DNA of 64,000 bases from a virus. Its lineage: Duplodnaviria; Caudoviricetes. How positions within the stretch are numbered: the first letter of the stretch is position 1; each line of letters begins with the position of its first letter. The stretch covers positions 15,986 to 79,985 of the IMG/VR virus record IMGVR_UViG_3300033070_000479; one strand, given 5' to 3'. Under the pieces are notes generated by a model that saw nothing but the letters and a program-made list of their open reading frames with translations, made no database searches and was not told where the DNA came from. Below are positions 5,264 through 39,900 of this stretch, piece by piece. The translations under genes were made by a program, and so were the position numbers.

Positions 5264-7162
5264 TTGTCAGTCGTCGCCACAACTAACCCGTGCGCGTGCC
5301 CGGACCCTAATTGGGACGACGAGCCGGTGCTCGACCCGCCAGTGCCTCCGCCGGCGGAAGAGAGTTACTCGGTCTCAGATCCGACTTGCTACGGATTTTG
5401 TCAGTGGCAGCTGGAGGATGATGGTAATCTGGTGCTTCTGACTCCGAATGCGTGTGGTTCCGGCTGCGGGTGCTCCGAACCGTGTAGTTGTCCGGCAGAA
5501 GCTACCGTCGGATCTATCATTTCTAGCCGCTGCTCGGTAAATCCGTCTAAGGTAGACAAAATCTCATGCGCCTCTCTGACGTCAACTACCACTACTGCAG
5601 ACCCTAACTCTACAACCACCGTAGACCCAAATGCCGACGGCTGCTGCACGAGGACTTTAACTTACTACACCGTCTCCGATGCTCAAATTATTTGTAACCC
5701 ATCTCCGTACGACATACCGGGAACAAACCGTATATGGCTGAGCGAGAAACTCGAACCAAATACAGAGCAGTGTGCTCAACTTTTTAGGATGTACGGAGTT
5801 TACGGGGCGGGCTTCGGCGAGCAAACTCCCGAGTCAGCTGCATGCTCGACTGTTCGAGAAGTACGAAACACGCAAACATCGGTAGGATGTGGAGGTACGA
5901 TCACGACTACGTTGTGCGCCGAGTTGCCTAAGTGCAGCGGCTCGTGCGCGTACGTTACCCTATTAAATACTGATACTGACGAACTAGAGTGGTTTAGAGG
6001 GTGCAGCACCTGCTGCGAAGAGACAAGTGACTACGGGGATAAATGTAACTGCGATGTGCCGCTAAATCCCCCCGTCAGTCTTTGCTCCGCGGCCATAACT
6101 AGGTGCGGCGATGATCGCGGAAGCGGTAACTGCACCGGCACCTGCTTATTTCAGTACGACAAGCCAGGCGGCGGATGGGAGTACGTATCGTCACAGTGTC
6201 CCGGGTGCTCTTGTTCTCCGCCAGACTGGTCGGACATACCTGACACTGACGGAGAGTATCGTTGCACACCGTGCCTGGTCCCTAACGACCCGCCAACGTC
6301 TTCCACGACTACTGAGAGCCCATGCCCGTGCAGCGACTACTGCACGTGGCGCAAAGAAGACTCCGGCTGGACGCAGACCGTCGACTGCGTACTAGGGTGC
6401 TGCTCGTGCCAACAGCCGGTGTTTATTGAGGGCCTGCCGGACGGCACCTTGGCCCAGACGCCGTGCGTGGACTCTAGCCTACCGACAACGACGTCGACCA
6501 CTACCACGACCTCAGGGCCGTGCATCAACCTGTGCGAAGTCAAGTACCAGACCGCAACGGTCTCGGGTGTAACCGGGTGCTTCTTAACCCGAGTTACTGG
6601 ATCGGACGGGTGCTCGACCCCGTGTCAGTGCCCCGGCAGAACTCTCACAGCGCCGGATACAAATCTTGTAGCTACCGGGTCTTGCCCGGCTCCGCTGGAA
6701 GGCGCTACGGCCTGGGTGCCGTGCGAGCCGGAACCGACCACGACAACGACGACTACCACGACGACTACGACCACGGCCGCCCCAGTGTTCTCATGCGTGT
6801 GCTGCCCTCCGTCCGGAGGTGGTAACGGGTTCACGTCGAGAGCATGTATGTCCGGGTCTCAGACGTTCTGGGAAGGCCTCGGATGCACGGTGTTCGGTGA
6901 GTACTCGTCCTCTGGGGCCTGCACGTCTGCGTGCGTCGGCCCGGACTGCAGATGGGGCGGGTACCACTGCCGCAAGTATCCGAGCATTACCGGGCCGGCT
7001 GGTCCGAAAGTGTGTACGTGCGTGCCGGAAGAGACTGTCGGCGGCCTAGGGTTGTGCGCGGCGCCGTTCGCAGACTTGGCTTCGTGCCTAGCCGCTAACT
7101 GCGGGTCGATCACGCCCACTACGGCCGGGCCTACGACGGAGCCGCCGTTGGGCGGGGACTAA
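5264..7162 (+). CDS. Cys-rich repeat protein with Thr-rich (mucin-like) linkers; putative tail fibre or virion surface protein
   Basis: About 64 Cys in 632 aa (manual count), about 5 copies of a C-x3-C...C-x-C-x2-P module, poly-Thr linkers; last gene of the baseplate block. Confidence 0.65.
   Translation: MSVVATTNPCACPDPNWDDEPVLDPPVPPPAEESYSVSDPTCYGFCQWQLEDDGNLVLLTPNACGSGCGCSEPCSCPAEATVGSIISSRCSVNPSKVDKISCASLTSTTTTADPNSTTTVDPNADGCCTRTLTYYTVSDAQIICNPSPYDIPGTNRIWLSEKLEPNTEQCAQLFRMYGVYGAGFGEQTPESAACSTVREVRNTQTSVGCGGTITTTLCAELPKCSGSCAYVTLLNTDTDELEWFRGCSTCCEETSDYGDKCNCDVPLNPPVSLCSAAITRCGDDRGSGNCTGTCLFQYDKPGGGWEYVSSQCPGCSCSPPDWSDIPDTDGEYRCTPCLVPNDPPTSSTTTESPCPCSDYCTWRKEDSGWTQTVDCVLGCCSCQQPVFIEGLPDGTLAQTPCVDSSLPTTTSTTTTTSGPCINLCEVKYQTATVSGVTGCFLTRVTGSDGCSTPCQCPGRTLTAPDTNLVATGSCPAPLEGATAWVPCEPEPTTTTTTTTTTTTTAAPVFSCVCCPPSGGGNGFTSRACMSGSQTFWEGLGCTVFGEYSSSGACTSACVGPDCRWGGYHCRKYPSITGPAGPKVCTCVPEETVGGLGLCAAPFADLASCLAANCGSITPTTAGPTTEPPLGGD
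6737..6775 (+). repeat. Coding ACN trinucleotide tract (13 consecutive Thr codons)
   Basis: accacgacaacgacgactaccacgacgactacgaccacg, with varied synonymous third positions. Confidence 0.9.
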
Positions 7163-7175
7163 ACAGGAGACTCTC

Positions 7176-8987
7176 ATGGACCGTGACTTTACTGTCGGCA
7201 TGGCGTGCTTCAACGACTTTGACGGCGTCTACTTCACAGTAGAGGCTCTGAAAGTGTTTCACGCCGACAGGGTGGCGCAGATCATCGTCGTTGACGACTC
7301 GCCCGAAGGCCCGGTCCAAGAACGGACCATGAAGTGGTGCCGTAGGCTGTCCAACGTGCTCTACGTCCGGTCTCACGTACACGGCACCTCGGCCCCGCGT
7401 AACCGGGTGTTTGCGGAGGCTACGTCTGAGAAGGTTGTGTGCATCGACTCACACGTCCTGATACACCCCGGGTCGTTTTCTGCCCTGGACGACTTCTGGG
7501 CCGTTACTGCCGGCCACGGTATCCGCCTAGCTCACGGCGTCTTGATGGAGGACGACAACCGGGTTCCGCTGTCGTCGTTCCGAGACGAGTGGGGCGACGA
7601 CCTGATGCACGGGAAGTGGCACACAGACACAGCACAGTTTCCTCTGACTAACCTACGCGTGCCCGGTACCGCGGCGTACGCGTCCGATGACCTCGGACGT
7701 CCGGTCGCCGCCAAGCCGTGGATCGACGTGTGGTCGCAGGGGCTGGGCGGGTTCGCCTGCCTTAGGGACGAGTGGCCGGGCTTCCACCCGGGGTTTTCCC
7801 AGTTCGGCGGAGAAGAGGGCTACATTGACGACAAGTTCAGGCGTATGGGCGGGATGGCGGTATCCGTATCCGGGTTCCGGTGGACTCACCGATTTCATGA
7901 CCAGGACGTCAAAACACCGGCCTCCTCCTATTCGAGATCTACTGTCGCAAAGTTCCGGAACTACGTACTCGGACGTCGAGACAATTTACTACAGACTGCT
8001 GATGTCACGGCGGCTTACGCCGGTAAAGGACACCCCGCCGAGAGGTGGGCGTCCGACGTAGAGACGGAAGTAAATGCTAAGCCGTCGAAGACGCAAGGCT
8101 CAGTCACCGTCTCCGCCCCTGCCCCCGCCAAGAAGTGCGGAGGGTGCGGAGCGGGTGGGTCCAAGGAGGTTGCCGAAAAGTGGGCTGAGGTCATGTCCCG
8201 CAACGCGGAGTTGCGGGCCATGATCGAATCCGTGAAATCGATAGCCGCAGGAAAACACGTGTGGGTAGGGCCTGAGGCGTACGCAGGCGTCCTGGAGTCG
8301 TCGGCGTGCGTGGCGGCAGTGGCGGCAGGCGCCGCGTCGGTAACCCTGTGTGTGCCGAAACAGGACGATACGACTAAGAACTGGGTTCAGTCCGTCACGT
8401 CCATGCTGTCCGACAAGGTGTCTGTGTCGAGCCGAGACATGTGGCCAGGTCAGGCGATCGTGCTGTCCCCCGTAGGACTCCCTGGCGCCGTAAAGGAGTA
8501 CACGCACGAGATCTCTAAGGTGGGGTCGTCGTGGGTCGTGTCGACGCGCGCCGCAGAGCCGAAGAGGATTCCGCTGCCGGTAACCAACGCGGCCGCAGTC
8601 GCCGCACAATATCCGGATCACGCTGTCGTGAAGTCCGCCACCGGAAAACCGGAATTGGCTCCGGTGTGGGAACTGGACCCGTCCGTCAAGGTACTGCCGG
8701 GTCGCGGCCGCATGGCGCTCAACTACTTGAAGTTTCTGACGTCGGATAAAGAGCAGGCCACCCCGGAAGTCGCCAAAGAGCGCATGGACAAGTGCTGGAC
8801 GTGCCCGAACCGTAAGCCGGTGCTGTACCCGGACCGCAACTGGTACCAGCGGTGTACGGATACGGAAGAAGCTAAGGGGTGCGGCTGCTTCCTGGACTGG
8901 TCTCCGCCTAACCCCAACAACAACACGCAGCCCGAGCCGGGTAAGGTGGCTTACGCCGACCAGGCCTGCCCGCGCGGATTTTGGTAG
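7176..8987 (+). CDS. Multidomain GT-A glycosyltransferase with DxH motif and C-terminal Cys-cluster domain
   Basis: IIVVDDSP, GTSAPRNRVF, VVCIDSHVL, GLGGFAC...FGGEEGY...MGG; C-terminal ERMDKCWTC...GCGCF...CPRGFW. AACAGGAG RBS upstream. Confidence 0.8.
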   Translation: MDRDFTVGMACFNDFDGVYFTVEALKVFHADRVAQIIVVDDSPEGPVQERTMKWCRRLSNVLYVRSHVHGTSAPRNRVFAEATSEKVVCIDSHVLIHPGSFSALDDFWAVTAGHGIRLAHGVLMEDDNRVPLSSFRDEWGDDLMHGKWHTDTAQFPLTNLRVPGTAAYASDDLGRPVAAKPWIDVWSQGLGGFACLRDEWPGFHPGFSQFGGEEGYIDDKFRRMGGMAVSVSGFRWTHRFHDQDVKTPASSYSRSTVAKFRNYVLGRRDNLLQTADVTAAYAGKGHPAERWASDVETEVNAKPSKTQGSVTVSAPAPAKKCGGCGAGGSKEVAEKWAEVMSRNAELRAMIESVKSIAAGKHVWVGPEAYAGVLESSACVAAVAAGAASVTLCVPKQDDTTKNWVQSVTSMLSDKVSVSSRDMWPGQAIVLSPVGLPGAVKEYTHEISKVGSSWVVSTRAAEPKRIPLPVTNAAAVAAQYPDHAVVKSATGKPELAPVWELDPSVKVLPGRGRMALNYLKFLTSDKEQATPEVAKERMDKCWTCPNRKPVLYPDRNWYQRCTDTEEAKGCGCFLDWSPPNPNNNTQPEPGKVAYADQACPRGFW

Positions 8988-9010
8988 ACACACGCTAACA
9001 GGAGTTTCCA

Positions 9011-9826
9011 ATGGCTACGCCTCTAGTGACCGCCATGTGCCCTACGTTCGGTAGACTCCCGAAACACAGGCACTTGCTGTGTCAGTCGGTATGGTGCTTT
9101 ACGCAGCAGGATTACCCCAACAAAGAGATGGTGATCCTGAACGACGCGCCGAATCAGACGATAGGTTGTACGGTTCCAGGCGTGCGCGTCATTAACTGCC
9201 CGTCGCGGTACAAGAGTCTAGGCGAAAAGCGCAACGCCCTCCTGGCCCACGCACGGGGCGAAATACTGTTGCCGTGGGACGACGACGATATCCACCTATC
9301 GGGCCGGATGTCGCAGGCGGTAACTATGCTGGACGGGTTCGAATACTGGAACCCTCAGGCTTCGTGGTACATGAACCCTGTCGAGACGGGCGGGGCGTTG
9401 TCTCACACCCACAACCACGGCGTGTGCCACAACGCTTCTGCTTTTCGAGCCGGGGCGGTATGGTATGACCCGGTGTCCGGCGGAGAAGACCGTAAAGCCG
9501 ACCTGCGGGCCAAGGCAAGTAAAAAGACGAACCACCGGAACCTCGTGAGCGACCCGGCGTCGTGGGAGTACATCTACCGGTTCGGGGTCGGCAAACATAT
9601 CTCGTCCGTCGCTGAAGATAGGTCACAGGAGGAGTACGACCGACGTACCGCTACGCCGGGTTTGTTTTACATCAGCCCCGAGGAGCCTCCTGAGTTCAAA
9701 GAGTGGATGAAGCAGCGGAGTGCCGCCCTGGGGCCGTCCATTCAGATAAGCCACACGTCAACGCCTGGGCCGGAGATGCGGAAGCCGACCTTCCTAGAAC
9801 GACTTCTGGGGGTATGGACGCGATGA
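9011..9826 (+). CDS. Glycosyltransferase family 2
   Basis: CPTFGR, QQDYPNKEMVILND, LGEKRN, LLPWDDDDIHL motifs. AACAGGAG RBS upstream. Confidence 0.85.
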   Translation: MATPLVTAMCPTFGRLPKHRHLLCQSVWCFTQQDYPNKEMVILNDAPNQTIGCTVPGVRVINCPSRYKSLGEKRNALLAHARGEILLPWDDDDIHLSGRMSQAVTMLDGFEYWNPQASWYMNPVETGGALSHTHNHGVCHNASAFRAGAVWYDPVSGGEDRKADLRAKASKKTNHRNLVSDPASWEYIYRFGVGKHISSVAEDRSQEEYDRRTATPGLFYISPEEPPEFKEWMKQRSAALGPSIQISHTSTPGPEMRKPTFLERLLGVWTR

Positions 9827-10701
9827 CGCCATCCGCCGCAATAACCGAGTCTCTAGCTTCCGCGGACCAGTCGCGCATTGTCGACGGTACCGGTGTTGGG
9901 GTGGTTACTTGCGGCGGAGGTCCCTACCAGTACGGCATCTACGTACTGGTAAAAATGCTGCGTCTGTGCGGCTACGCCGGCGGGGTGTGGGTGTGGCACC
10001 GCGGGCCGGCTGAGCCGGTCTGCAGCGCCATTCGAAAGATGCCCGGCGTTACGGTGGTGGACGTCGTTAAGGACGCGGAAGACAACGGGCTGAGAGCCCC
10101 CGCCGGTGGCTGGGAATGCAAGGCGTACGCCATGGCGCGGACACCGGTTAAGGTAGCCGCCTTCTTTGACGCAGACGCGTACCCAGTCAACTCGATCGAC
10201 GCGTGCCTCGAAACTGCCGAGGCCGAAGGAGAAGTTTTTTGGCGTGACCTGGATAACGCCAACCTGCAGTGGAGATCGTTAGGTCTAGAAGTCCCCAAGC
10301 CGAAGTGGATTCCCGTCAACGGCGGGCAGTGGGTCGTTAACCGCGAACTCCGCAAACCGCAGCTCGCTCTCTACTCGGCGCTCACCGACAGAAGCTCGGT
10401 GCTGTACCGGTACATGCTGGGCGATCAAGACTGCCAGTTGCTGGCATGGTACCTGACCAACACCAGGTACTTCATCGGAGACCTCGAAGAGGTGCGCCAA
10501 GTGAGCGGTGTGCTCGTGTACGACTTTCCTCACGGCAGGACGCAGGTGCTGCACCGCATCGGGTCGAAGATGGCGCCGTCCGGAATGTTCTCGCGTGGCA
10601 CGTACTCTGGTCCGGTTAGAGGTCTGCCTCTGGAGCGACAAGCCACCTCTTTTTACGCCGAAGCCGTAGACGCCGTCGGCGTGCCGATTCGCGCTAAATA
10701 A
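9823..10701 (+). CDS. Glycosyltransferase, alpha-mannosyltransferase (GT71/Mannosyl_trans3)-like
   Basis: ATG 9823 overlaps the upstream TGA. GVGVVTCGGG, GGWECKAYAM, FFDADAYPV (DxD), VFWRD, NGGQWVVNR, GDQD. Confidence 0.6.
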   Translation: MTPSAAITESLASADQSRIVDGTGVGVVTCGGGPYQYGIYVLVKMLRLCGYAGGVWVWHRGPAEPVCSAIRKMPGVTVVDVVKDAEDNGLRAPAGGWECKAYAMARTPVKVAAFFDADAYPVNSIDACLETAEAEGEVFWRDLDNANLQWRSLGLEVPKPKWIPVNGGQWVVNRELRKPQLALYSALTDRSSVLYRYMLGDQDCQLLAWYLTNTRYFIGDLEEVRQVSGVLVYDFPHGRTQVLHRIGSKMAPSGMFSRGTYSGPVRGLPLERQATSFYAEAVDAVGVPIRAK

Positions 10702-10805: not shown

Positions 10806-11150
10806 ATGAGCGTTCAAGGAAGCAGCGACAACCTGATCAGCGTCACGTACCAGCCGGCCAGCTCGGACGTGCCGGTGGTCGTCCAGCTGCCGGCAGGCAG
10901 CACGGTCGGGCACTTGCTCGCCCACCGGGCGGTCAACTCCTCGGCGACTGGTCTGGTGTTCTTGGTCAACGGCAACAAGTCCACCACGGAGACGATTCTG
11001 TCGGAGGGCTCCCGGGTCGTCTCGATGAAGGCCAAGGTGGCCGGGGCCGTGCTCGTCGGTCAGGAAGACGACATCTACGCGATCGACGCTAGGCTGGCTG
11101 CCGGTATGGAAGCGGCCTACAAGGCCTTCAAGGCCTGCGCCGGGCTCTAA
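10806..11150 (+). CDS. Ubiquitin-like (beta-grasp, ThiS/MoaD-type) protein with C-terminal extension
   Basis: ATG 10806. Pattern ISVTYQ / VVVQLPAGSTVGHLL / VFLVNG / ILSEGSRVV, then KAKVAG80 and 34 further residues. Confidence 0.75.
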   Translation: MSVQGSSDNLISVTYQPASSDVPVVVQLPAGSTVGHLLAHRAVNSSATGLVFLVNGNKSTTETILSEGSRVVSMKAKVAGAVLVGQEDDIYAIDARLAAGMEAAYKAFKACAGL

Positions 11151-11156
11151 GACAGA

Positions 11157-12308
11157 ATGTTAACCGAAGCTCAACGCTCCCACGCCGCCGCGCAATTTGC
11201 CGCGGCGGCGTGGTCTTTGTCTACCGCGGCATGCCAGAGTGCGCCGCGCGGACCGTGGATCAACGAGCTGGCGACCTTATCCCACGCCATCTACGAAAAG
11301 ACCAGTCGGTACAACGCGGCCGTTCAGAGCCCCGCATCGTACGGCGGATCTCGAGGCGTGGCTACCAGATTCAAAGAGCTGAAGCAGGCGTGCGCCAAGT
11401 GGCGGAGTACGTACGCGAGGGCTATGGCCGGAGGACTCAAAGATCTGTCGTGGACGAGGCAGTCGGCGATTCCAAAGACCTTGGTGCAGACGGCAGAATC
11501 GGGTCTGGTGGGTTTGGAGAAGGACGGGTTCGTCCTCACGTACAGCATCGAGCAGAAGACTCTGACAGTGCATGCTCGTGAGCCGACGATAATCGAGCTA
11601 CAGTACGACCACGCCGTTCACGGGACCGGCAGCAGCGCGGCGAGAACTAGGCTGGAGAAGATAAAGGCGTCTTTCCCGATCCCGCTAAACTTCGGGAGGA
11701 TGAAGCTCACGTTCAGCCTCGGCAATACCGACATGCTGAACTACGACGCGTACATCAACGCCATGGCTAGATGCGCCTTTACTGGGTCCAAGACGATAAA
11801 GAGCGGCAACTACTACCACCCGCACGTCAAGAGCGACGGGGTGGTGTGTCTGGGCGATACGGTCCGGGCCTGCAACAACATGTTCAAGAGCGGGTCCATC
11901 AGCGAGATCGTGCACATCTTCGCGTTGGTGTGTTCGAACTACAACAGGCACAGCCCGTACATCGATCTGCACAGGTTCGTCCTACCTTCCTGCGGTGCAT
12001 GCGGTGGGTGGGAGTGTCCGCCGACTCAGGAACAGCGCGAAGACGTAATCAAGAAGTGCTTCTCGTGCCGAAGGGACGTCTGCCGTCGCAATAGGTGCTC
12101 GGAGGTGTGCGCTGAGACTGGTAACTTCGCGTGCATGTCCTGCCTCAGGAAGTGTACGGCGTGCAGCAGGGGTTACGCCGTCAACAGCAAGGGGTTCGCG
12201 TCGTTCGTGTCTTATCCGGGTAAGTGCGGGGTCTGTACGGGCACGCTGCCGGCCAGCACCCTGCTATCCGAGCAGTCCGAGACCGGCACACAAGGGCCGT
12301 CTACGTAA
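11157..12308 (+). CDS. Prokaryotic E2/UBC-fold protein with C-terminal Cys-rich Zn-binding region
   Basis: YYHPHVKSDGVVCLG matches the E2 HPN(I/V)...G.(I/V)CL signature; candidate catalytic Cys codon 11847-11849. Multiple CxxC pairs downstream. Confidence 0.75.
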   Translation: MLTEAQRSHAAAQFAAAAWSLSTAACQSAPRGPWINELATLSHAIYEKTSRYNAAVQSPASYGGSRGVATRFKELKQACAKWRSTYARAMAGGLKDLSWTRQSAIPKTLVQTAESGLVGLEKDGFVLTYSIEQKTLTVHAREPTIIELQYDHAVHGTGSSAARTRLEKIKASFPIPLNFGRMKLTFSLGNTDMLNYDAYINAMARCAFTGSKTIKSGNYYHPHVKSDGVVCLGDTVRACNNMFKSGSISEIVHIFALVCSNYNRHSPYIDLHRFVLPSCGACGGWECPPTQEQREDVIKKCFSCRRDVCRRNRCSEVCAETGNFACMSCLRKCTACSRGYAVNSKGFASFVSYPGKCGVCTGTLPASTLLSEQSETGTQGPST

Positions 12309-12338
12309 GTGATCACAATCAACAGAAGGACAGATAAT

Positions 12339-13283
12339 ATGCCAGACGGCGGACCGGTCATCTCCGGTGAAATCGCGGCGACGGACAAGTCGAATTCGGT
12401 AGTGAAGACCAGATTGCGCGGGGTGGACAAGGACGGCAACGCGCACAGGCTCGTCATGAGCCCTACCGCGTTCCTGCAGGCGAAGACCATGGTGTTCTGC
12501 GACGATAGGGAGATATCGGCCATGGCGGTCGTCGCCGAAGACGACCCTCTGTACGTCGAGCGCTTCGACATCGTCGAACAGGAAGGCAGCTCGGCCTTTA
12601 CCGAACTTGACGGCGCCGCCCTCCTCTGCCGGTCCGAGTCCTACTCTCAGTTGGGCATCGGGTACGACAGGACTATGCGGGTGTGGTTCCACACGCACCC
12701 GTTCAGCTGTGCGGCTAACCCGTCCGCCACCGACAACAGCACGTTCGCGGACGTGTTCGGCAACATGCCGTTTGCCGTGATGCTCATTCACAGCAAGGAC
12801 GGCAGTTGGGGCGCCACACTGCGGGTCGGGCAGGGCAAGATCGGCGTCAAGACCAAGCTCTCCGGAGTAGAGGTCGACTGGTCCGCCGTACCGGACATGC
12901 CGGCGTTTGACCCGCAATCCGTGATCGACGAGGTCAAGAAGCAGGTCAAGACGCGGGCGTACCAGGCCGTGCAGTTTTATCAGCCGACGCACGCTGTCAG
13001 CGGTAAGCGCTGGGACAGCGATTACGGCGGCAACCGGTGGTGGGACAAGGCGACGAAGGTCGACAACGGACCGATCACGCACGCCGGCGGCGTGGTGAAG
13101 GGGAAATTCGACGGGGGTTACGGTCCCAGCGAGGAATACCGCCCGAACCGTAAGACCAAGAAGCGCCGCCGCACCAACGTGTCGTACGAGGACGCCGCGA
13201 AGATGTGGGAGACCGACTTTGCGGACGCCGACGCCCTGGAAGAATACCTGCGTAACGCCGAGCAGCACGATGCGGGCGAGTAA
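12339..13283 (+). CDS. JAB/JAMM (MPN+) metallo-isopeptidase
   Basis: ATG 12339 after AAGGA. Upstream Glu (REISAM) plus WFHTHPFSCAANPSATD, matching the E...HxH-x7-S-x2-D JAMM motif. Confidence 0.85.
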   Translation: MPDGGPVISGEIAATDKSNSVVKTRLRGVDKDGNAHRLVMSPTAFLQAKTMVFCDDREISAMAVVAEDDPLYVERFDIVEQEGSSAFTELDGAALLCRSESYSQLGIGYDRTMRVWFHTHPFSCAANPSATDNSTFADVFGNMPFAVMLIHSKDGSWGATLRVGQGKIGVKTKLSGVEVDWSAVPDMPAFDPQSVIDEVKKQVKTRAYQAVQFYQPTHAVSGKRWDSDYGGNRWWDKATKVDNGPITHAGGVVKGKFDGGYGPSEEYRPNRKTKKRRRTNVSYEDAAKMWETDFADADALEEYLRNAEQHDAGE

Positions 13284-13971
13284 CGTCGTCGACACGCCGA
13301 TCAGTGCGCGAAACGAGCGCCAGCGGTCGGTCTTGCCTGAGGCGGCTCTCTTGTTTCGTCCGGCAGTAGTCATCGGGGTGGGGGCTATCGGACGCCCTAC
13401 GGCCGAGATGCTGTCCGGTACCGGTGTTCGCAGGCTGGACCTCTGGGACTTCGACACGGTCGAAGAGGTCAACATCGGCAACCAGGGTTACAGGCCTTCC
13501 GACGTCGGTAAGCGTAAAGCCGACGCCTGTAAAGAGTTCTGCGTGGCGAAGTCGCCGTCCTCGGCCGTGCGCGCCATGTACGAGGCGGTCGGCCCGTCCA
13601 CGTCTATCACGGACGAAAGTCCCGAAGACGTAGCGGTGTTTTGCTGCGTGGACAAGATGTCCGCCCGCAAGGAGATCGCCTCTCTCTGCAAGGCGAACGG
13701 GGTTGGCCTGTTTGTCGACACCCGCATGCTGGGGGACGACGTACGCGTCTACTGCTGCCGTACTCCTGAAGCGTACGAGGTGTACCTTAAGGAGCTGTTT
13801 ACAGACGAAGAGGCCGAACCCGGACGGTGCGGGAATTCCTCTAACGTCTACGCGTCAAACACGGCCGCCTCTCTGGCGGTCAAACTGTGGACCTTGTGGC
13901 TACGGGATCTCCCGAGCCCCAAGGAAGTTGTGGCGACCCTTAGCGGGTTCGCAATCGTGGCCGACTACTAG
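13270..13971 (+). CDS. E1-like ThiF/MoeB-family adenylyltransferase
   Basis: VIGVGAIG, DFDTVEEVNIGNQ, DVGKRKA, CCVD, DTRM; candidate thioester Cys in EPGRCGNS (codon 13828-13830). Start approximate. Confidence 0.9.
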   Translation: MRASNVVDTPISARNERQRSVLPEAALLFRPAVVIGVGAIGRPTAEMLSGTGVRRLDLWDFDTVEEVNIGNQGYRPSDVGKRKADACKEFCVAKSPSSAVRAMYEAVGPSTSITDESPEDVAVFCCVDKMSARKEIASLCKANGVGLFVDTRMLGDDVRVYCCRTPEAYEVYLKELFTDEEAEPGRCGNSSNVYASNTAASLAVKLWTLWLRDLPSPKEVVATLSGFAIVADY

Positions 13972-14008
13972 TCGGCCTTTCTTTACCGACCCCATAACAG
14001 GAGAGAAC

Positions 14009-15349
14009 GTGGCCAAAGCCAAAGGAACTTCCGCGTCTGTGGCGCAATCGCTGCCGTCGACTCTGACCGCCGACGGCATCGAGGACATGATCGTCAAGTG
14101 TGTGCAGTCCCACGTGGTCCCGATGATCTGGGGTCCGCCAGGGGTCGGTAAGACCCGTCGCATCGAGGCCGTGGCCCGGCGTCTGGCCCAGCACACCGGG
14201 TTGTCGGCAGAAGTTCACACGCTGATCTGCTCCATGTGCGAACCCAGCGACCTGGCCGGCTTCCCGATCGCTGACGGAAAATACCGCCGGCCGGACGGGT
14301 CGGACTTGTCGGTGGTCCAGTTCGCTCCGCGGGAGTCCTTTGTGCGCTTGGCGACGCACGGCGGCGTCCTGTTCTTCGACGAGCTGTCCACGGCCCCACC
14401 GTCCATCCAGGCGGTGGCGCTGCGGATCATCAACGACCGCGTCGCCGGCGACATTCACTTGCCGCCGAACAAAGTCGCCATGATCGCCGCCGGAAACCCG
14501 CCCGAAACGGGGGCCGGCGTGTTCGACCTGTCGGCGCCGATGGCCAACCGGCTCTGCCACCTCCAGTGGCCGACGGACTCGCAGTTCCGCCGGGCCTGGG
14601 CGGAAGACTTCATCTCGTACTGGGGCAGCCCGCCGAAGGTGGAGTTCAACGGCCGGCAGGTTCCGGAGGAGTTCTACTCGCGGGCCCGGCGCGCCGTCTC
14701 GGCGTTCATCATGGCGAGCCCGGAAAACCTGCTGCCGGTTCCCGGTCAGTCCTCGACCGGAACCGGTACGATCGCCGACCTGGCGTACCCGACGCCCCGG
14801 TCGTGGGACGCCGCGGCCCGCGTGCTGGCGTCCGGCGAAAGCCGGCTGTTCGATAAAGAGGAGGGCCAGGCCATGCTCAGCCTGATCTCCGGCCTCGTCG
14901 GCACCGGCCCGGCGCAGGCGTTCTCCAAGTTCATTCGCGACTCGGACCTCCCCGACCCGGTCCGGCTGCTGGAAAACCCGGAGTCGTACCAGCCGCAGAA
15001 AGAAAACTTCGTGGCTTACGCGACCGTGACGGCCGTCGTAAACCTGGTACTGTCGTACCTGGCCGTGAGCCGGGATGAGCTGCGGGCGGCCAAGTCTTCG
15101 GACCCCGTCTACCGCAAGGCCGTCAAGTACGTCATGAACGGCGCCAAGCTCGTGGTGGCCGCCGGCGAAGGACGTCTGGAAACGGCCAAAGGCCCTCTGG
15201 ACCGGCTGCTGGCGGCGGCCCGGGAAGTCCACCTGACGCAGCAGGAGCAAGTGGCGCTCAACTCCATCACCGCACCGTATGCGAAGGACATGCAGCGGTA
15301 CAAGAACATGGTCGTCACCAGCGTTCGGACCGTCTCCACGGAAAAGTGA
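14009..15349 (+). CDS. MoxR-type (AAA_5/dynein-related) AAA+ ATPase
   Basis: GTG 14009 after AACAGGAG. Walker A WGPPGVGKT, Walker B LFFDELS, AAGNP, LSAPMANRLCH, PTPRSW. Confidence 0.9.
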   Translation: MAKAKGTSASVAQSLPSTLTADGIEDMIVKCVQSHVVPMIWGPPGVGKTRRIEAVARRLAQHTGLSAEVHTLICSMCEPSDLAGFPIADGKYRRPDGSDLSVVQFAPRESFVRLATHGGVLFFDELSTAPPSIQAVALRIINDRVAGDIHLPPNKVAMIAAGNPPETGAGVFDLSAPMANRLCHLQWPTDSQFRRAWAEDFISYWGSPPKVEFNGRQVPEEFYSRARRAVSAFIMASPENLLPVPGQSSTGTGTIADLAYPTPRSWDAAARVLASGESRLFDKEEGQAMLSLISGLVGTGPAQAFSKFIRDSDLPDPVRLLENPESYQPQKENFVAYATVTAVVNLVLSYLAVSRDELRAAKSSDPVYRKAVKYVMNGAKLVVAAGEGRLETAKGPLDRLLAAAREVHLTQQEQVALNSITAPYAKDMQRYKNMVVTSVRTVSTEK

Positions 15350-15362
15350 GGACCAGACGACG

Positions 15363-16631
15363 ATGACTAGTTCAGAACGGATTACTGCGGCCAAGTTGCT
15401 GGCCGTGCAGTGGTGGCCGTACTTGGCGGACGCCGTCGTCCGCCTCCCGGTCAGGTTCTCTCCCGGCGTCCCGACCATGGGCGTCTCGAAAGATTGGATC
15501 CTGTACATCAACCCGGAATGGGCGGACAAGCAGAGCGTGGCGATGTTGGCCCTCATCATCGCCGGTCACGAAGTCGGTGGGCACCTGCTCAACGACCACG
15601 CGTGCCGCGCAGCCGGGTTGCACCACGAACTGTCGAACATGGCCGGCGACTTGGCCATCAACTGTCACCTGAAGAACTACCGCGACAGCGCCTGCTTGAG
15701 CGGTGCGAAGGATCAGATCACGGTCCCGGATGACCCTGAAGAGGCCCTCTATCCGAAGAACTTCAAAGCCAAGGACGGTACGCCTTTTCCAGACAACCTG
15801 ATGATGGAGGAGTACTACGCCCTACTCCTCGACAACGCCACACTCATCGGTACCGGCCAAGGGAAAGGAGACGGCAAAGGGAAGTGCAAGTGCGGGTCCG
15901 GCGCCACCGGGGTCGCGGAAGACTGGGAGGAGGGCACGTCTGTCGGACAAGACGGCCAAGACCAAGGAGTCAGTCCGGCGGAAGCGTCTCTGATTCGCGA
16001 CGCGGTGGCTGCTGCGTGCAAGAAGCACGAAGAGCAGCGCGGACGTGGGTCAGTGCCGTCCGGGCTACTGCGGTGGGCTGACGACAGGCTCCGCCCGCCA
16101 CAGGTTCCCTGGACGACGCAGATACGCAGGCACATCCAGCGTATCGTGGCGGGGCGCGGCAGGGGTGACTACTCCTACACGCAGTACAACCGCCGGTCTC
16201 AGGGTCGTCTGATTCTGCCGGGCATGGTTGAGCACAAGAAGAAGTGCAACGCGGTTCTGGACACGTCCGGAAGTATGTGTGACGAACGCATACGGGCCGG
16301 CTTGTCCGAGCTGGTGGCGGCGGCTTCTCACCTTGGCCCTATCCAGCTGTTTGCGTGCGACGCCGCGGCGGCTGACGCCGGTACGCTGCGTACCAAATCG
16401 GACGTGAAGAAGCTGAAACTGCAGGGCGGAGGCGGCACCGACATGGGTGCAGGCCTGAACGCCGCCGCAGAGTCCAAACCGACGTTTACGTTGGTACTAA
16501 CCGACGGCGACACCCCGTGGCCGGAAGACAAACCTACGGGGTTAGGAGAAATCCTGGTCGTGCTTATCGGCCGGTACGGGGCAGACCGAGTTCCGGACTG
16601 GGCCGAATGGGTGGCTGTCGACGACGGCTGA
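15363..16631 (+). CDS. Putative metallopeptidase plus VWA domain protein (DUF2201-like), MoxR partner
   Basis: HEVGGHLLNDHACR (HExxH-like), NMAGDLAIN; VWA MIDAS residues DTSGSM, GGGTD, LTDG. Confidence 0.85.
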   Translation: MTSSERITAAKLLAVQWWPYLADAVVRLPVRFSPGVPTMGVSKDWILYINPEWADKQSVAMLALIIAGHEVGGHLLNDHACRAAGLHHELSNMAGDLAINCHLKNYRDSACLSGAKDQITVPDDPEEALYPKNFKAKDGTPFPDNLMMEEYYALLLDNATLIGTGQGKGDGKGKCKCGSGATGVAEDWEEGTSVGQDGQDQGVSPAEASLIRDAVAAACKKHEEQRGRGSVPSGLLRWADDRLRPPQVPWTTQIRRHIQRIVAGRGRGDYSYTQYNRRSQGRLILPGMVEHKKKCNAVLDTSGSMCDERIRAGLSELVAAASHLGPIQLFACDAAAADAGTLRTKSDVKKLKLQGGGGTDMGAGLNAAAESKPTFTLVLTDGDTPWPEDKPTGLGEILVVLIGRYGADRVPDWAEWVAVDDG

Positions 16632-16642
16632 CGTGCTACAAT

Positions 16643-16678
16643 AACCCCCGGGGCTACGGCCCCGGGGGTTTACTTTTT
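16643..16678 (+). terminator. Intrinsic terminator ending the Ubl-AAA operon
   Basis: Perfect 12-bp stem aacccccggggc/gccccgggggtt with a TACG (cUACGg-type) loop, followed by TACTTTTT. Confidence 0.85.
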
Positions 16679-36921: not shown

Positions 36922-39900
36922 ATGAGCTTTATTCGAACAGAGTCTGACCCTGACCTGGACGACGACGCCACCAGGTACCGCTGGTTTGGCGGCGTAACTC
37001 CCCAGGCAGCGAGAGCTTGTAATCCGATCGTGTCGTTGTACTGCGAGTCCGTACTGGACAAGCCCCTGGGGGAGGGGCTGGTCAGGGCTTCCGCGGTAGG
37101 AGCCTCGGAGATTAACGAGAGCGCCAGCTTTATCCACACGTCCTCGTCAAGGTCTCGTAAGAAGCCGATGGCGTTGACATTCACCCCGGACATGTTCGCG
37201 GCCGTTCGGTCGGCCCTCTACACGCCAGGATTTATCCTGCCGGTTACGGATAAGTCAGGAGAGTCTCGGGCGATCCAGCTGACGCCGGGCAGGGTGTTCG
37301 GGTCTGGTAAGCAAGGTCCTGCTAAGGCCGACATCATGGTGGTGTCGTCGATGCTGAACTCCAAGGAAATCGGCGCACCGACGCCGTTCTCTGGAGACAG
37401 CCACGAGGCCCTGTGGGACGCCTGGGATCAGGCCAGGCTGCCTGACCCGACTAAGTTGTCTGTGTACGGCACGTACGCGCTGAAATTCCCGTACTACCCC
37501 TGGTTCGGTAGTACCGTACCGGCGGCCCTCAAGGAGGACGCCAAGTACATTCTGTTTCAGGAGATACTGCTCTGCCGGCCTAAGTACCTGTGGCTGATGG
37601 GTAGCGAAGCCGTCAAGATGGTGCTGGGGCGAAACGTAACCCTCAACTCCTGCTATGGCGCTGTGACTAAGTTGTCTCTGGACTTCCGCAGGTACCCGGA
37701 CGACGACAAGGACATCGACGAGGTAAAGGTGGTCGTGTCGGACGCGTCTGCCGCAGTGCAGCATGACCCGGAAGTGTATCCGCGGCTGGCCAATACCGCG
37801 GCCTTGCTAGCCGACATATCTGGGTTCTCAGCTTCCAAGCGCCCGGAGCTGGTCACGGACTACCGACCGGTGTACACGCCCGAGGACCTCTTAGCCGCGG
37901 TAGAAGAAGCGATCGAGGATTCTCAAGGCGGTGGATATGTGGCTATCGACTGCGAGTGGGACGGGATGCACCCGAGCTGTCCGGGTTCGTACCTGTACAC
38001 GGTCCAGTTCTCGACCCGCCCCGGGAAGGCCTGGTGCGTGTTCGTTAGAAGGCAGTTCGGTAAGGAGAATCCTGACCTGCCGGTGACTTACGTGGCGGAA
38101 CACCTCAACCGGATGCTTAAAGGCCCCGGTAGAAACTTCCGTCTGGTGGGCCACAACCTGAAGGCCGACTTGGTCTGGCTCGAGTCGATCGGAGTGGACC
38201 TGTACGACCAGCTACCGGCCCCGGAAGACGACCCGGAAGGTCCCGGTATGAAGTTCGGGTGGCAGAAGACGTACACCGAAGGGTTCTTTGACACGCTGAT
38301 CGCGGCCCACGTTTACGAGGAAACGGCTGACGCAAAGTTGGAGCTGCAGCTGTCGTTGCGCCTGGGGCTGCCGCGGCACGACATGGACATGGAGGAGGAA
38401 AAGCAGAAGTTCCTCAAAGACAACAAGCTGTCGAAGAAGGAACTGACCGGCTACGGATTCTTGTCTGAGTCAGGGGTTCTGCGGTACGGCTGCGCCGACG
38501 CCGACGGGACCGGAAGACTGTACCTGTTCTACAACGGCAACCCGCGAGACGGTACGCCGGGGGCTCTGGACAGCGACAGGTTTAAGCAGACGTGCAGAGA
38601 CTCGTTCTGGGTGTTTCAGTACGCGGCACCCGCTTGGGCCGAGTTTGAGCGGCACGGTCTACTGCTGGACGATAACCGGCACGCGGCGATGTCGAAGCAG
38701 TTGGGGGACGCCAGAGACCGCCTGTACGCGTCACTGAGGGCGCAGGTCCGGTGGCCCGAGTTCAACATTCGCAGCACGGCGCAGTTGCGAGAGCTTCTAT
38801 TCGGTACCAGCTACGTCAAGAAGCCAATAGCCCCGCTGGACGCGGTGTGCTTAAACCTGTCCCCGTTCAAGGCCACTGACGCAGGCGGCGGACACCTGTG
38901 GAACGAAGCTTTGAGGAAAGCGGAAGAGGAAGGACGACCGACACCGGACCCGTCGACAGACAAGGAAACCTTGCTGCACTTGCTCCCCGAGCACCCGCTC
39001 ATCAGCACTATCATCAAGGTGAGGACCGCGTCTACCGCTATGAGCGGGTTCTTCAAGCGCCCTCAGTCCGCGAAAGCGGAAGAGCCCGATGAAGCTTCGG
39101 AGGCTTCTGAGTCGGACTCTACTGACGAGGCGTCTAAGGAGGTCGAGAAGGCTGTAGAGGCGGAGTTCGGTGGCCGTAACCTGACGGCCAGAGTGTGCGG
39201 AGACGGCAGGGTTCGGTCCATGTTCGGCATAGCGGAGACGGGCCGTGGCAGGTCCGGCAGGCCTAATCTGCAGAACGTCGGAGAAGGTGTCGATGAGAGC
39301 TATAACGACCTTCTAGGGTTAAAGAAGGGCGACGAGGGGTACTTCAAGACCGCCTCCGTGTTCATACCGCAGCCGGGGTGGGTGTTTGTTAAGGCCGACT
39401 TGAAGGGGGCCGAGATCGTCGTAGCCGGGTGGACCAGCGGAGACAAGATGCTGCTCGAACACGCCGCGCGCAGCTGTTTGGACGAGAAGCACCCGGACTA
39501 CCTGGACCTGCACTGCGACTTGGCGGTGCGCGCTTTCAACCTGGACTGCGCGCCAACAAAAGCCGCCTTCGAGAAGAAGGGCTACAGCCGGTACAGGAAA
39601 GCCGCTAAGCCGGCCCGCTTTGGTTTGTACTACGGGGCCGGCATAGAGACCATCTGGCGGAAGGCTGTTGAAGTTGATCGCTCTGTGACTGTTAAGGACG
39701 TCGAAAAGCTGGTAGCGGCGCACAACGAGACGTACCCGGATCTCGACACGCTGTTCTCACAGGCTCGGATGAGGCCCAGGAACCCTGGATGGTTGGCGTG
39801 GGTTTTTGGTGGCCGTAGAAGATTTCGGTACACGAAAGACGAAAAGGTCGCCGCTGCTCAAGGGAGGGAGTCTCAGAACGCCGTATGTCAAGGCAGCGTA

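What the first reader, a model, noticed from the sequence alone, without database searches (positions are those of the whole stretch)
10806..13971. Complete ubiquitin-like conjugation pathway (Ubl-E2-JAB-E1) encoded by a phage
Seen: four contiguous genes (gaps of 6 and 30 nt, then an overlap) with intact catalytic signatures: beta-grasp Ubl with an internal Gly, E2 HPHV..G.VCLG Cys, JAMM HTH..S..D, and E1 nucleotide-binding motif plus a Cys in EPGRCG. Known: bacterial Ubl/E1/E2/JAB operons exist (Bil anti-phage defence that conjugates Ubl to phage tail proteins, Bub and PRTRC cassettes). Inference: here the phage owns the pathway. It could tag host or phage proteins, strip or outcompete host Bil-type conjugates, or attack co-infecting phages. 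No thiamine or molybdopterin genes are present, so a sulfur-carrier role is unlikely.
Basis: partly seen in the sequence, partly recalled or inferred. Interest (0 to 1): 0.9.

Follow-up and report, generated by a model that had tools for sequence, protein, structure and literature searches.

The report
Phage-encoded ubiquitin-like protein-tagging cassette
A large uncultured river-water phage carries its own four-gene kit (tag, activating enzyme, carrier enzyme with a zinc-finger tail, trimming protease) for attaching a small ubiquitin-like protein to other proteins; it matters because this chemistry has been shown experimentally only in bacterial anti-phage defence, not in phages.

Summary
Four adjacent plus-strand genes (10806-13971) encode four proteins.
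- A ThiS/MoaD-type beta-grasp protein whose invariant Gly80 is followed by a 34-residue tail.
- A UBC-type E2 with HPH-x7-Cys231, preceded by a helical domain and followed by a 14-Cys zinc array.
- An Rpn11-like JAMM peptidase with an intact E..HxH..S..D motif.
- A minimal ThiF-type E1 with intact nucleotide-binding residues and an invariant Cys204.

The contig is a phage fragment (terminase, PolA, helicases).

The E2 has no Pfam, NCBIfam, PHROG or PADLOC family. HMMER still found 111 distant cluster representatives. Every context I inspected was phage-like or on a mobile element, with the same Ubl-E2-JAB-E1 order. Isolated phages carry relatives annotated only as "thiamine biosynthesis protein": Xanthomonas PhiXhv-12 and, for JAB and E1, Flavobacterium FpV4.

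The cassette fails defining features of Bil (E1 architecture), Bub, PRTRC and CBASS Cap2/3. It is therefore a distinct family of a known kind of system. I found no paper describing it.

This scan has already reported the same cassette on other DNA, in other phages and in Planctomycetota mobile elements.

The neighbouring MoxR and VWA genes are not conserved partners. Conjugation chemistry is likely (about 0.75). The targets and the biological role are unknown.

The parts
10806..11150 (+). Pro-Ubl, 114 aa. ThiS/MoaD-type beta-grasp covers residues 1-80 (10806-11045) and ends in K-V-A-Gly80 (Gly at 11043-11045). A 34-residue C-terminal tail follows (11046-11147).
   Evidence: Pfam ThiS E 0.0058, below the cut-off. 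A profile of 6 homologues matches solved MoaD at 7.5e-4 and SAMP2 at 1.8e-3. ESM Atlas structural matches to ThiS/MoaD/SAMP2/Urm1 clusters cover residues 4-83, TM by the matched cluster 0.54-0.80 for the five single-domain clusters. Gly80 is invariant; the homologues carry 1-4 residues after it, the window 34.
11157..12308 (+). E2-like carrier enzyme, 383 aa. N-terminal three-helix region covers residues 1-~100. UBC core covers ~107-275, with HPH 221-223 (11817-11825) and catalytic Cys231 (11847-11849). A zinc-finger-like array of 14 Cys covers residues 279-360 (11991-12236).
   Evidence: No Pfam, NCBIfam, PHROG or PADLOC hit. 111 distant cluster representatives. H221, P222, C231 and G233 are invariant. 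12 of 97 members hit Pfam UQ_con. AF2 with the family alignment gives pLDDT 81.5. Foldseek PDB top hits are almost all E2 enzymes, probability up to 0.97, E 0.01-0.3. The profile alignment to UbcH5 places HPH on HPN, Cys on Cys and YNxxSPY on PNPDDP.
12339..13283 (+). JAMM/MPN+ (Rpn11-like) metallopeptidase; an alternative GTG start lies at 12309. Numbering from 12309: Glu68 12510-12512, His128/His130 12690-12698, Ser139 12723-12725, Asp142 12732-12734. Predicted to trim the pro-Ubl after Gly80 and possibly to remove conjugates.
   Evidence: H128, H130, S139 and D142 are invariant in 7 homologues and the Glu is conserved. The profile matches the solved Caldiarchaeum Rpn11-like protein 6fjv at 4.4e-11 and yeast Rpn11 at 5e-6. 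7 of 7 homologues hit Pfam Prok-JAB, best 3e-5. The window protein alone is weak, E 0.077.
13270..13971 (+). Minimal E1 with a single ThiF/MoeB-type adenylation domain, 233 aa from the ATG at 13270 (250 aa from the TTG at 13219). GxGxxG at 13375-13392. Invariant Cys204 at 13828-13830 (numbering from 13219).
   Evidence: Pfam ThiF 78.2 bits, E 6.8e-22. Invariant G53, G55, D77, N85, Q89, K100, D145, R150, D167, R169 and C204 in 8 homologues. Solved ThiF, UBA5, MoeB and SAE2 match at about 1e-7.
13959..13977 (+). Terminator-like hairpin (8-bp stem followed by a T-rich tail) spanning the E1 stop codon. It may be the end of the four-gene unit.
   Evidence: Consensus scan only. Function not shown.
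11180..11213 (+). Strong GC hairpin (13 pairs, 12 G-C) with a T-rich tail, 30 nt after the Ubl stop and inside the first codons of the E2 gene. It could attenuate transcription so that more Ubl than E2 is made.
Evidence: Consensus scan only.
14009..16631 (+). Adjacent genes that are not part of the conserved cassette: MoxR-type AAA+ (14009-15349) and a DUF2201 metallopeptidase-like/VWA protein (15363-16631). A strong terminator-like hairpin follows at 16643-16670.
   Evidence: AAA_5 5.6e-8, DUF2201_N 1.9e-24, DUF2201 1.7e-13. phrog_1297 6.8e-54 and phrog_1314 3.1e-46. No AAA_5 or DUF2201 gene in the flanks shown of the six related cassettes whose neighbours carry Pfam calls.

Best explanation
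This is a phage-encoded ubiquitin-like protein-conjugation cascade. It belongs to a distinct family, undescribed in the literature I could search, that is carried by phages and mobile elements.

Proposed mechanism (each step inferred unless marked shown):
1. The 114-aa pro-Ubl is trimmed by the Rpn11-like JAB peptidase after the invariant Gly80. Shown: the Gly is invariant and the tails after it vary in length.
2. The minimal ThiF-type E1, probably a homodimer, adenylates Gly80. It may then hold the Ubl as a thioester on the invariant Cys204.
3. The Ubl passes to Cys231 of the E2. The HPH-x7-Cys loop has the same spacing as the HPN-x7-Cys loop of eukaryotic E2s.
4. The E2 transfers the Ubl to lysines of target proteins. 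The E2's own N-terminal helical domain and C-terminal zinc-finger array act as a built-in substrate receptor (E3-like), because no separate E3 gene is present.
5. The JAB may also reverse conjugation.

The targets are unknown. The cassette usually sits among replication and early-type genes of phages, and earlier notes of this scan (not checked here) call it a near-constant part of certain mobile elements. I therefore favour a role in the element's own infection programme (modifying host or phage proteins) over a variable defence cargo.
For: - Phage identity.
- E1: ThiF E 6.8e-22, with all nucleotide-binding and catalytic residues plus Cys204 invariant.
- E2: family of 111 cluster representatives with invariant H221, P222, C231 and G233. 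12 of 97 members hit UQ_con. The profile alignment to UbcH5 matches HPN, Cys and NPxxP. The AF2 model (pLDDT 81.5) has Foldseek PDB hits that are nearly all E2s.
- JAB: full JAMM motif invariant, and the profile matches Rpn11-type structures at 4.4e-11.
- Ubl: beta-grasp supported by matches to MoaD and SAMP2 and by Atlas structural matches. Gly80 is invariant with variable tails.
- Synteny: the order Ubl-E2-JAB-E1 is conserved in seven other contigs, all phage-like or on mobile elements.
- Isolated phages: an E2 relative and E1 in Xanthomonas phage PhiXhv-12 (hhalign 92.8%, E 3.9e-7). JAB and E1 in Flavobacterium phage FpV4.
- No sulfur-transfer or cofactor family appeared in the neighbours scanned against Pfam.
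Against: - No biochemical evidence of any kind: no thioester, conjugate or processing has been shown.
- The window's own E2, Ubl and JAB fall below curated Pfam thresholds. Their assignment rests on family profiles and a predicted structure.
- Foldseek E-values for the E2 against PDB are weak (0.01-0.3), because the query is a three-part protein.
- The E1 lacks the second (inactive) adenylation domain, the mobile Cys domain and the ubiquitin-fold domain that Bil and eukaryotic E1s use to reach the E2. How the E2 is recruited is therefore unexplained. Cys204 may play a ThiF-like rather than an E1-like role.
- The window's zinc array is partly degenerate compared with the family consensus.
- The targets and the benefit to the phage are pure inference.
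Confidence: 0.75

Rival explanations
1. Inter-element defence cargo. The cassette works like Bil, but for the phage's benefit: during co-infection it tags structural proteins of rival phages (superinfection exclusion), or it protects the lysogen or host population.
For: The only experimentally characterised bacterial Ubl-E1-E2-JAB operons (Bil) and the E1-E2/JAB pair of type II CBASS are anti-phage systems, often on mobile elements (PMC10557695, PMC11601596, bioRxiv 10.1101/2023.09.04.556158). The E1 domain matches PADLOC CBASS 'E1-E2' models at 4.9e-14. One relative (L004) lies next to a type I restriction-modification system.
Against: No PADLOC model matches the Ubl, E2 or JAB. The E1 architecture differs from BilD. 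In most contexts the cassette sits among replication genes of apparently lytic large phages, not in defence islands. Earlier scan notes, which I did not check, describe it as a near-constant part of some element families, unlike variable defence cargo.
Confidence: 0.2
2. Counter-defence only. The useful activity is the JAB peptidase stripping host Bil or CBASS conjugates, or the phage Ubl acting as a decoy. The E1 and E2 do not drive productive conjugation.
For: Deconjugation of host Ubl conjugates would be a plausible phage counter-measure (inference; no paper checked).
Against: All four genes keep invariant catalytic residues across very divergent homologues at 14-35% identity. That argues for selection on the whole cascade. 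The Ubl is of ThiS/MoaD type, not similar to the BilA double-Ub fold.
Confidence: 0.05
3. Sulfur-carrier pathway. The E1 adenylates the Ubl to make a thiocarboxylate for thiolation of tRNA, DNA or a cofactor, as in ThiS/ThiF, MoaD/MoeB and TtuB/TtuC. The JAB only matures the carrier.
For: The Ubl is of ThiS/MoaD type. The E1 is a minimal ThiF/MoeB-like protein, and its best NCBIfam matches are ThiF and MoeB models, all far below cut-off. GenBank annotators call the phage homologues 'thiamine biosynthesis protein'.
Against: A UBC-type E2 with an invariant Cys is always present between the Ubl and JAB genes. No rhodanese or thiamine/molybdopterin family was seen in the neighbours scanned. All ThiF and MoeB equivalog scores lie far below their cut-offs (53 against 275 bits).
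Confidence: 0.04
4. Tag-unfold-cleave machine. The Ubl cascade works together with the downstream MoxR AAA+ and the VWA/metallopeptidase-like protein as one six-gene degradation system.
For: The genes are adjacent on the same strand with a 37-nt gap. A strong terminator-like hairpin comes only after the VWA gene. The closest E1 relative (L002) has a different AAA+ (BCS1-like) inserted between the Ubl and E2 genes.
Against: No AAA_5 or DUF2201 gene appears in the flanks shown of the six related cassettes whose neighbours carry Pfam calls. The MoxR/DUF2201 pair are PHROG families in their own right. A terminator-like hairpin sits on the E1 stop codon.
Confidence: 0.1

Closest known systems
BilABCD (type I/II bacterial ISG15-like anti-phage operons; PMC10557695, PMC11601596, bioRxiv 10.1101/2023.09.04.556158)
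   Same: Four separate genes for Ubl, E2, JAB peptidase and E1 in one operon. The Ubl has a conserved C-terminal Gly. There is no separate E3, so the E2 is thought to choose targets. Thioester chemistry is expected from the conserved Cys residues.
   Different: BilD is an IAD-AAD-CYS multidomain E1; here the E1 is a single ~233-aa adenylation domain. BilA has two ubiquitin-like domains; here there is one ThiS/MoaD-like domain. The E2 here carries an N-terminal helical domain and a multi-CxxC zinc array. The cassette is encoded by phages and mobile elements, not chromosomal defence islands. No Bil-type model hit appeared in PADLOC or NCBIfam.
Caldiarchaeum subterraneum-type 'eukaryote-like' operon (Ub, E1, E2, small RING finger, Rpn11 homologue; PMC3082918, PMC5654768)
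   Same: The best solved match of the JAB profile is the Caldiarchaeum Rpn11-like protein (6fjv, E 4.4e-11). The E2 keeps the classical HPx-x7-Cys loop. A zinc-finger module accompanies the E2.
   Different: There the RING is a separate small protein; here a long CxxC array is fused to the E2, and its fold (RING, B-box or other) is unresolved. The Ubl here is ThiS/MoaD-like rather than ubiquitin-like. One is an archaeal chromosome, the other a phage.
PRTRC cassette / Iyer 2006 class 6d (Ubl, JAB, E1, E2-like, alpha-helical protein, often ParB; PMC1779556)
   Same: Mobile-element-borne with separate Ubl, E2-like, JAB and E1 genes. One relative of the window's E2 (L003) even has a ParB gene two genes downstream of its E1.
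   Different: Class 6d E2-like proteins lack the classical His of the HPN motif; this family has an invariant H-P plus a nearly invariant second His. The PRTRC_ThiF model scores 34.8 bits against a cut-off of 144.75, and no PRTRC A-F model matches.
Type II CBASS Cap2/Cap3
   Same: E1 adenylation domain similarity (PADLOC E1-E2 models, 4.9e-14). JAB partner.
   Different: Cap2 is an E2-E1 fusion that conjugates a CD-NTase. There is no free Ubl there, and no CD-NTase here.
Lambda/T1 tail-assembly TAPI (Ub-like) and TAPK (JAB + NlpC) (PMC1779556)
   Same: The one published case I found of a phage-encoded Ubl with a C-terminal Gly paired with a JAB peptidase.
   Different: It has no E1 or E2 and lies in the tail gene cluster, with processing only. 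Here a full activation and transfer cascade lies outside any recognised structural module.

Membership tests
Bil (BilABCD) | Operon with separate Ubl, E2, JAB and E1 genes | tested here: met
   Gene order Ubl-E2-JAB-E1 with 6-nt and 30-nt gaps and a 14-nt overlap.
Bil (BilABCD) | [quoted passage not shown] | tested here: not met
   The E1 is 233-250 aa with one ThiF domain (residues 49-164 of 250). Homologues are 212-255 aa.
Bil (BilABCD) | Match to a curated Bil/ISG15-like model | tested here: inconclusive
   No such hit in PADLOC 2.0 or NCBIfam 20 for any of the four proteins. I could not verify that these libraries hold Bil models.
Bub (6E/DUF6527) | E2 with catalytic Ser instead of Cys, E1 without catalytic Cys, and a DUF6527 serine peptidase (PMC11601596) | tested here: not met
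   E2 Cys231 and E1 Cys204 are invariant. No DUF6527 hit among the nine neighbouring proteins scanned.
PRTRC (TIGR03734-03742) | PRTRC_ThiF and PRTRC A-F models above cut-off; ParB partner | tested here: not met
   TIGR03736 scores 34.8 bits against a cut-off of 144.75. No PRTRC A-F hits. No ParB hit among the nine neighbouring proteins scanned against Pfam.
Type II CBASS Cap2/Cap3 | E2-E1 fusion protein with an adjacent CD-NTase | tested here: not met
   E2 and E1 are separate genes with the JAB gene between them. No nucleotidyltransferase hit among the neighbours scanned.
UBC/E2 superfamily | UBC fold with an HPN-type loop and a catalytic Cys 8 residues after the third loop position | tested here: met
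   HPH221-223 to Cys231 has the same spacing as HPN75-77 to Cys85 in UbcH5 (spacing read from the alignment). Foldseek top hits are E2s. 12 of 97 family members hit UQ_con.
UBC/E2 superfamily | Pfam UQ_con (PF00179) above the gathering score for the window protein itself | tested here: not met
   No Pfam hit at E <= 0.1. This is a divergent branch, not a member of the curated family.
JAMM/MPN+ peptidases | E-x(n)-H-x-H-x(7-8)-S-x2-D zinc site | tested here: met
   E68, H128, H130, S139 and D142 are conserved. Rpn11-type structures match at E 4.4e-11. The spacing H-x-H-x8-S is one residue longer than the textbook motif.
ThiF/MoeB/E1 adenylation domain (PF00899) | Score above the gathering cut-off; GxGxxG, Arg/Asn-Gln, Lys and Asp residues | tested here: met
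   78.2 bits against 28.1. Invariant residues listed.
ThiS/MoaD-type beta-grasp Ubl | Beta-grasp fold ending in a conserved Gly | tested here: met
   The profile matches solved MoaD, SAMP2 and PF1061 at E 7.5e-4 to 2.8e-3. Atlas structural matches have TM by the matched cluster of 0.54-0.80 for the five single-domain clusters. Gly80 is invariant. Pfam ThiS itself is below cut-off (17.6 against 22.5 bits).
RING / B-box cross-brace zinc fingers (as an E3 module) | Eight ligands binding two zinc ions in a cross-brace; an E2-binding or substrate-binding role | tested here: inconclusive
   Weak, composition-prone profile matches to RING2, MID1 B-box, FYVE and TRIM fingers (E 0.004-0.3). Scattered single-member Pfam hits.

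The most novel reading that the evidence does not exclude
Phages, including isolated ones, run their own eukaryote-like ubiquitination system: a classical-type E2 with a built-in zinc-finger E3-like receptor, an Rpn11-like peptidase and a pro-Ubl. They use it offensively during infection to tag host or rival-element proteins, in some lineages together with an AAA+ unfoldase (MoxR here, BCS1-like in L002). That would be the first viral counterpart of the Bil-type bacterial systems and a new layer of phage-host conflict.
Probability: 0.3. Interest if true: 0.85.

Novelty: new variant of a known kind. Interest (0 to 1): 0.7.

Why it matters
Ubiquitin-like protein conjugation in bacteria has been demonstrated only recently, and only as host defence (Bil, Bub, CBASS Cap2). 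A conserved family of complete cascades owned by phages and mobile elements would show that the invader uses the same chemistry. It would open the question of what phages tag and why.

This family keeps the classical E2 loop and an Rpn11-type peptidase, and it fuses a zinc-finger array to the E2. It is therefore also relevant to how E2-E3 cooperation arose.

Related E1, JAB and E2 genes, currently mis-annotated as thiamine biosynthesis genes or as hypothetical, are present in isolated Flavobacterium and Xanthomonas phages. The question can therefore be tested in the laboratory.

Tried and rejected
- Single-sequence AF2 of the E2 gave an unusable model (pLDDT 41.8).
- VIA-align second look: the list was filled by matches to the N-terminal helices (residues 1-123), so it said nothing about the UBC core.
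- The search for homologous proteins found only the protein itself.
- phmmer of the E2 against PDB gave nothing meaningful.
- The search for related loci with the E2 or the JAB alone found nothing in IMG/VR. Alignments A1 and A4 were too divergent for that tool.
- blastn of the region and tblastn of the E2 against 50,697 GenBank phage records gave no match.
- PADLOC gave no model for the Ubl, E2 or JAB.
- hhalign did not confirm FpV4 gp52 as an E2 (E 0.15), FpV4 gp53 as a Ubl or the PhiXhv-12 140-aa GG-ended protein as a Ubl. Pfam was also blank for them. These remain readings of C-terminal G-G motifs only.
- No RNA holder was listed among public runs.
- Six literature searches and targeted reading of six papers found no description of a phage-encoded Ubl-E2-JAB-E1 cassette. 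Burroughs et al. 2009 and 2011 were not held, so they could not be checked.
- I considered and rejected membership in Bil, Bub, PRTRC and CBASS (see Membership tests).

Full report
**What is there**

The window is bases 15986-79985 of a 79,985-bp linear IMG/VR virus record that CheckV rates about 54% complete. It encodes:
- a large terminase (phrog_675, E 1.2e-35);
- a family-A DNA polymerase;
- DnaB-like and other helicases;
- SbcC;
- a UvsX-like recombinase;
- an RNA-polymerase-beta-like giant ORF.

So it is a fragment of a large tailed phage.

Near-identical DNA lies in contigs of four public runs from two studies. The runs that carry an organism label are riverine metagenomes. There is one substitution, 11866 G>T, which changes E2 R237 to L.

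- Ubl, 10806-11150;
- E2-like, 11157-12308;
- JAB, 12339 (or GTG 12309)-13283;
- E1, 13270 (or TTG 13219)-13971.

**E1**

Pfam ThiF scores 78.2 bits (E 6.8e-22). Every ThiF, MoeB, SAMP-E1 and PRTRC model in NCBIfam falls far below its cut-off.

I aligned it with seven homologues from related cassettes at 26-35% identity. The invariant positions are the GxGxxG glycines, D77, N85, Q89, K100, D145, R150, D167, R169, Y189 and one cysteine, C204 (13828-13830).

The protein is a single adenylation domain of about 233 residues. It has no second adenylation domain, no inserted Cys domain and no ubiquitin-fold domain.

**E2**

The 383-aa protein has no hit in Pfam, NCBIfam, PHROGs or PADLOC, and no word-based homologue.

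An exhaustive HMMER search found 111 cluster representatives at E <= 1e-3. Most are 300-450 aa long and match around residues 170-340.

In an alignment of 97 of them:
- H221, P222, C231 and G233 are invariant;
- G180, H223, L259, Y262, N263 and Y268 are nearly invariant.

The core consensus is HPHVxxxGxxCxGDA...YNxxSPY. In about two thirds of the members a regular series of CxxC pairs follows it.

Several lines link the family to classical E2s.
- Twelve of the 97 members hit Pfam UQ_con, best E 2.1e-5.
- The family profile aligns to UbcH5 with HPH on HPN, Cys on the catalytic Cys and YNxxSPY on PNPDDP.
- The spacing of HPHVKSDGVVC equals that of HPNINSNGSIC.
- With the family alignment, AF2 gave a confident model (pLDDT 81.5; core blocks 89-97).
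- The model's secondary structure runs in the UBC order: helix 107-122, four strands, the HPH loop, then helices 233-244 and 248-260.
- Foldseek against PDB returned E2 enzymes for nearly all of the top 50 rows (probability up to 0.97, target-normalised TM about 0.5). The E-values are only 0.01-0.3, because the query also holds a long N-terminal helical region and a zinc array.
- Against predicted viral structures, seven unnamed proteins (BFVD has no name or organism for them) matched at E <= 1e-3.

The C-terminal region holds 14 Cys between residues 279 and 360. It gives only weak, composition-prone matches to RING, B-box and FYVE fingers. Its fold is unresolved. In this phage it is somewhat degenerate relative to the family consensus.

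**JAB**

The window protein alone is a weak Prok-JAB hit (E 0.077). Seven homologues share invariant H128, H130, S139 and D142 and a conserved upstream Glu.

All seven hit Prok-JAB. Their profile matches the solved Caldiarchaeum Rpn11-like protein at 4.4e-11 and yeast Rpn11 at 5e-6.

**Ubl**

Evidence for a beta-grasp fold:
- Pfam ThiS is sub-threshold (E 0.0058).
- A six-member profile matches solved MoaD, SAMP2 and PF1061 at 7.5e-4 to 2.8e-3.
- The ESM Atlas model of residues 4-83 superposes on ThiS, MoaD, SAMP2 and Urm1 clusters.

Gly80 is invariant within a K-x-x-G-A ending. The homologues stop 1-4 residues after it, whereas the window's protein continues for 34 residues. The Ubl is therefore made as a precursor that must be trimmed. 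The adjacent JAB is the obvious candidate (inference).

**Conservation and distribution**

The order small ThiS-like ORF, E2, JAB-sized ORF, ThiF recurs in these contigs:

| Locus or protein | Context |
|---|---|
| L002 | IMG/VR contig; E1 35% identical; a BCS1-like AAA+ sits between Ubl and E2 |
| L003 | ParB two genes downstream of the E1 |
| L004 | beside a GP88-family gene and a type I restriction-modification system |
| P0005 contig | PD-(D/E)XK nuclease, AAA_24, RNase H, methylase |
| L005 | 170-kb contig with RNA ligase and NAPRTase |
| L006/L007 | ERF, amidase, HNH, P22-like gene |

All of these look like phages or mobile elements.

Among isolated phages, E1 relatives annotated "thiamine biosynthesis protein" occur in 49 GenBank records.
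- In Flavobacterium phage FpV4 the E1 is preceded by a JAB (gp51) and by a 289-aa protein with ...KSGG after an N-terminal domain.
- In Xanthomonas jumbo phage PhiXhv-12 it is preceded by an 892-aa member of the E2 family (hhalign 92.8%, E 3.9e-7) and by a 140-aa protein ending in GG.
- The FpV4 gp52 and both Ubl candidates were not confirmed by profiles.

**Neighbours**

The MoxR AAA+ gene (14009-15349) and the DUF2201 VWA/metallopeptidase-like gene (15363-16631) match well-populated PHROG families. No AAA_5 or DUF2201 gene appears in the flanks shown of the six related cassettes whose neighbours carry Pfam calls. I did not scan L002's neighbours beyond its cassette, or the neighbours in FpV4 and PhiXhv-12, for these two families.

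A terminator-like hairpin lies on the E1 stop codon (13959-13977), and a stronger one follows the VWA gene. I treat these two genes as neighbours, not parts. That two relatives carry different AAA+ genes next to the cassette stays an open lead.

**Comparison with known systems**

- Bil shares the four-gene logic, but its E1 is an IAD-AAD-CYS multidomain protein (PMC11601596). That defining feature is not met here.
- Bub uses Ser/Tyr oxyesters and a DUF6527 peptidase. Not met.
- PRTRC / Iyer class 6d E2-like proteins lack the classical His, and the PRTRC models score below cut-off (PMC1779556). Not met.
- Cap2 is an E2-E1 fusion acting on a CD-NTase. Not met.
- In flavour, the nearest system is the Caldiarchaeum Ub/E1/E2/RING/Rpn11 operon. 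It shares the classical E2 loop, the Rpn11-type JAB and a zinc finger.

The cassette is therefore a distinct family of a known kind of system.

I found no paper describing a phage-encoded version. The published phage case I found is the Ubl-JAB pair of lambda-type tail assembly, which has no E1 or E2 (PMC1779556). Two Aravind-group papers could not be read.

**Earlier notes of this scan**

Follow-up agents have already reported what appears to be the same cassette, including the E2 fused to a zinc-finger array. They found it in other large phages and in integrated mobile elements of Planctomycetota.

My Atlas look-ups agree with that distribution. These notes are unverified AI notes. I did not use them as evidence, but they mean this window is a further member and not a first sighting within the scan.

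**Verdict**

- The biochemical reading is likely but undemonstrated (about 0.75). It runs: pro-Ubl trimming, adenylation, E2 thioester, then transfer to lysines guided by the E2's own extra domains.
- The biological role is unknown. I favour a role in the phage's own infection programme over defence cargo, counter-defence or sulfur transfer.

Noticed in passing
window 11180-11213: A 13-pair, nearly all-GC hairpin with a T-rich tail sits 30 nt after the Ubl stop codon, inside codons 8-19 of the E2 gene. It could act as a partial terminator or attenuator giving more Ubl than E2.
   Followed up: no
window 14009-16670: A MoxR-type AAA+ and a DUF2201 metallopeptidase-like/VWA pair lie directly downstream and are closed by a strong terminator-like hairpin at 16643-16670. 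Both have strong PHROG matches (phrog_1297, phrog_1314). Neither family appears near the six related cassettes whose neighbours carry Pfam calls.
   Followed up: partly
L002 967-2157: In the closest related cassette, a BCS1-like AAA+ ATPase (BCS1_N 3e-16, AAA 3e-21) is inserted between the Ubl and E2 genes. Together with the MoxR gene here, this hints at a recurrent but non-homologous AAA+ accessory.
   Followed up: partly
L008 (Flavobacterium phage FpV4, NC_041872.1) and L009 (Xanthomonas phage PhiXhv-12, PV764601.1): Genes annotated 'thiamine biosynthesis protein (ThiF)' in 49 GenBank phage records are E1 relatives. The two records inspected show them inside Ubl-type cassettes. In FpV4 the E1 follows a JAB and a protein with an internal ...KSGG. 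In PhiXhv-12 it follows an 892-aa E2-family protein with Cys-rich ends and a 140-aa protein ending in GG. The annotation is probably wrong.
   Followed up: partly
window 7176-10701: Three glycosyltransferase-like genes (GT2, GT2, mannosyltransferase-like) lie directly upstream of the cassette. They follow a 632-aa ORF (5264-7162) with no family match.
   Followed up: no
window 58454-64000: An ORF of more than 1,848 aa runs off the window end. It has PHROG matches to RNA polymerase beta subunit, a thymidylate-synthase-labelled family and a LAGLIDADG homing endonuclease, which suggests an intein-interrupted phage RNA polymerase subunit.
   Followed up: no
window 36922-40155: The family-A DNA polymerase (1,077 aa) has a uracil-DNA-glycosylase-superfamily segment at residues 131-240, ahead of the 3'-5' exonuclease domain.
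   Followed up: no
window 11866: This is the only difference among the four metagenome runs over 3.4 kb: G>T in one run, changing E2 Arg237 to Leu at a variable position six residues after the catalytic Cys.
   Followed up: yes
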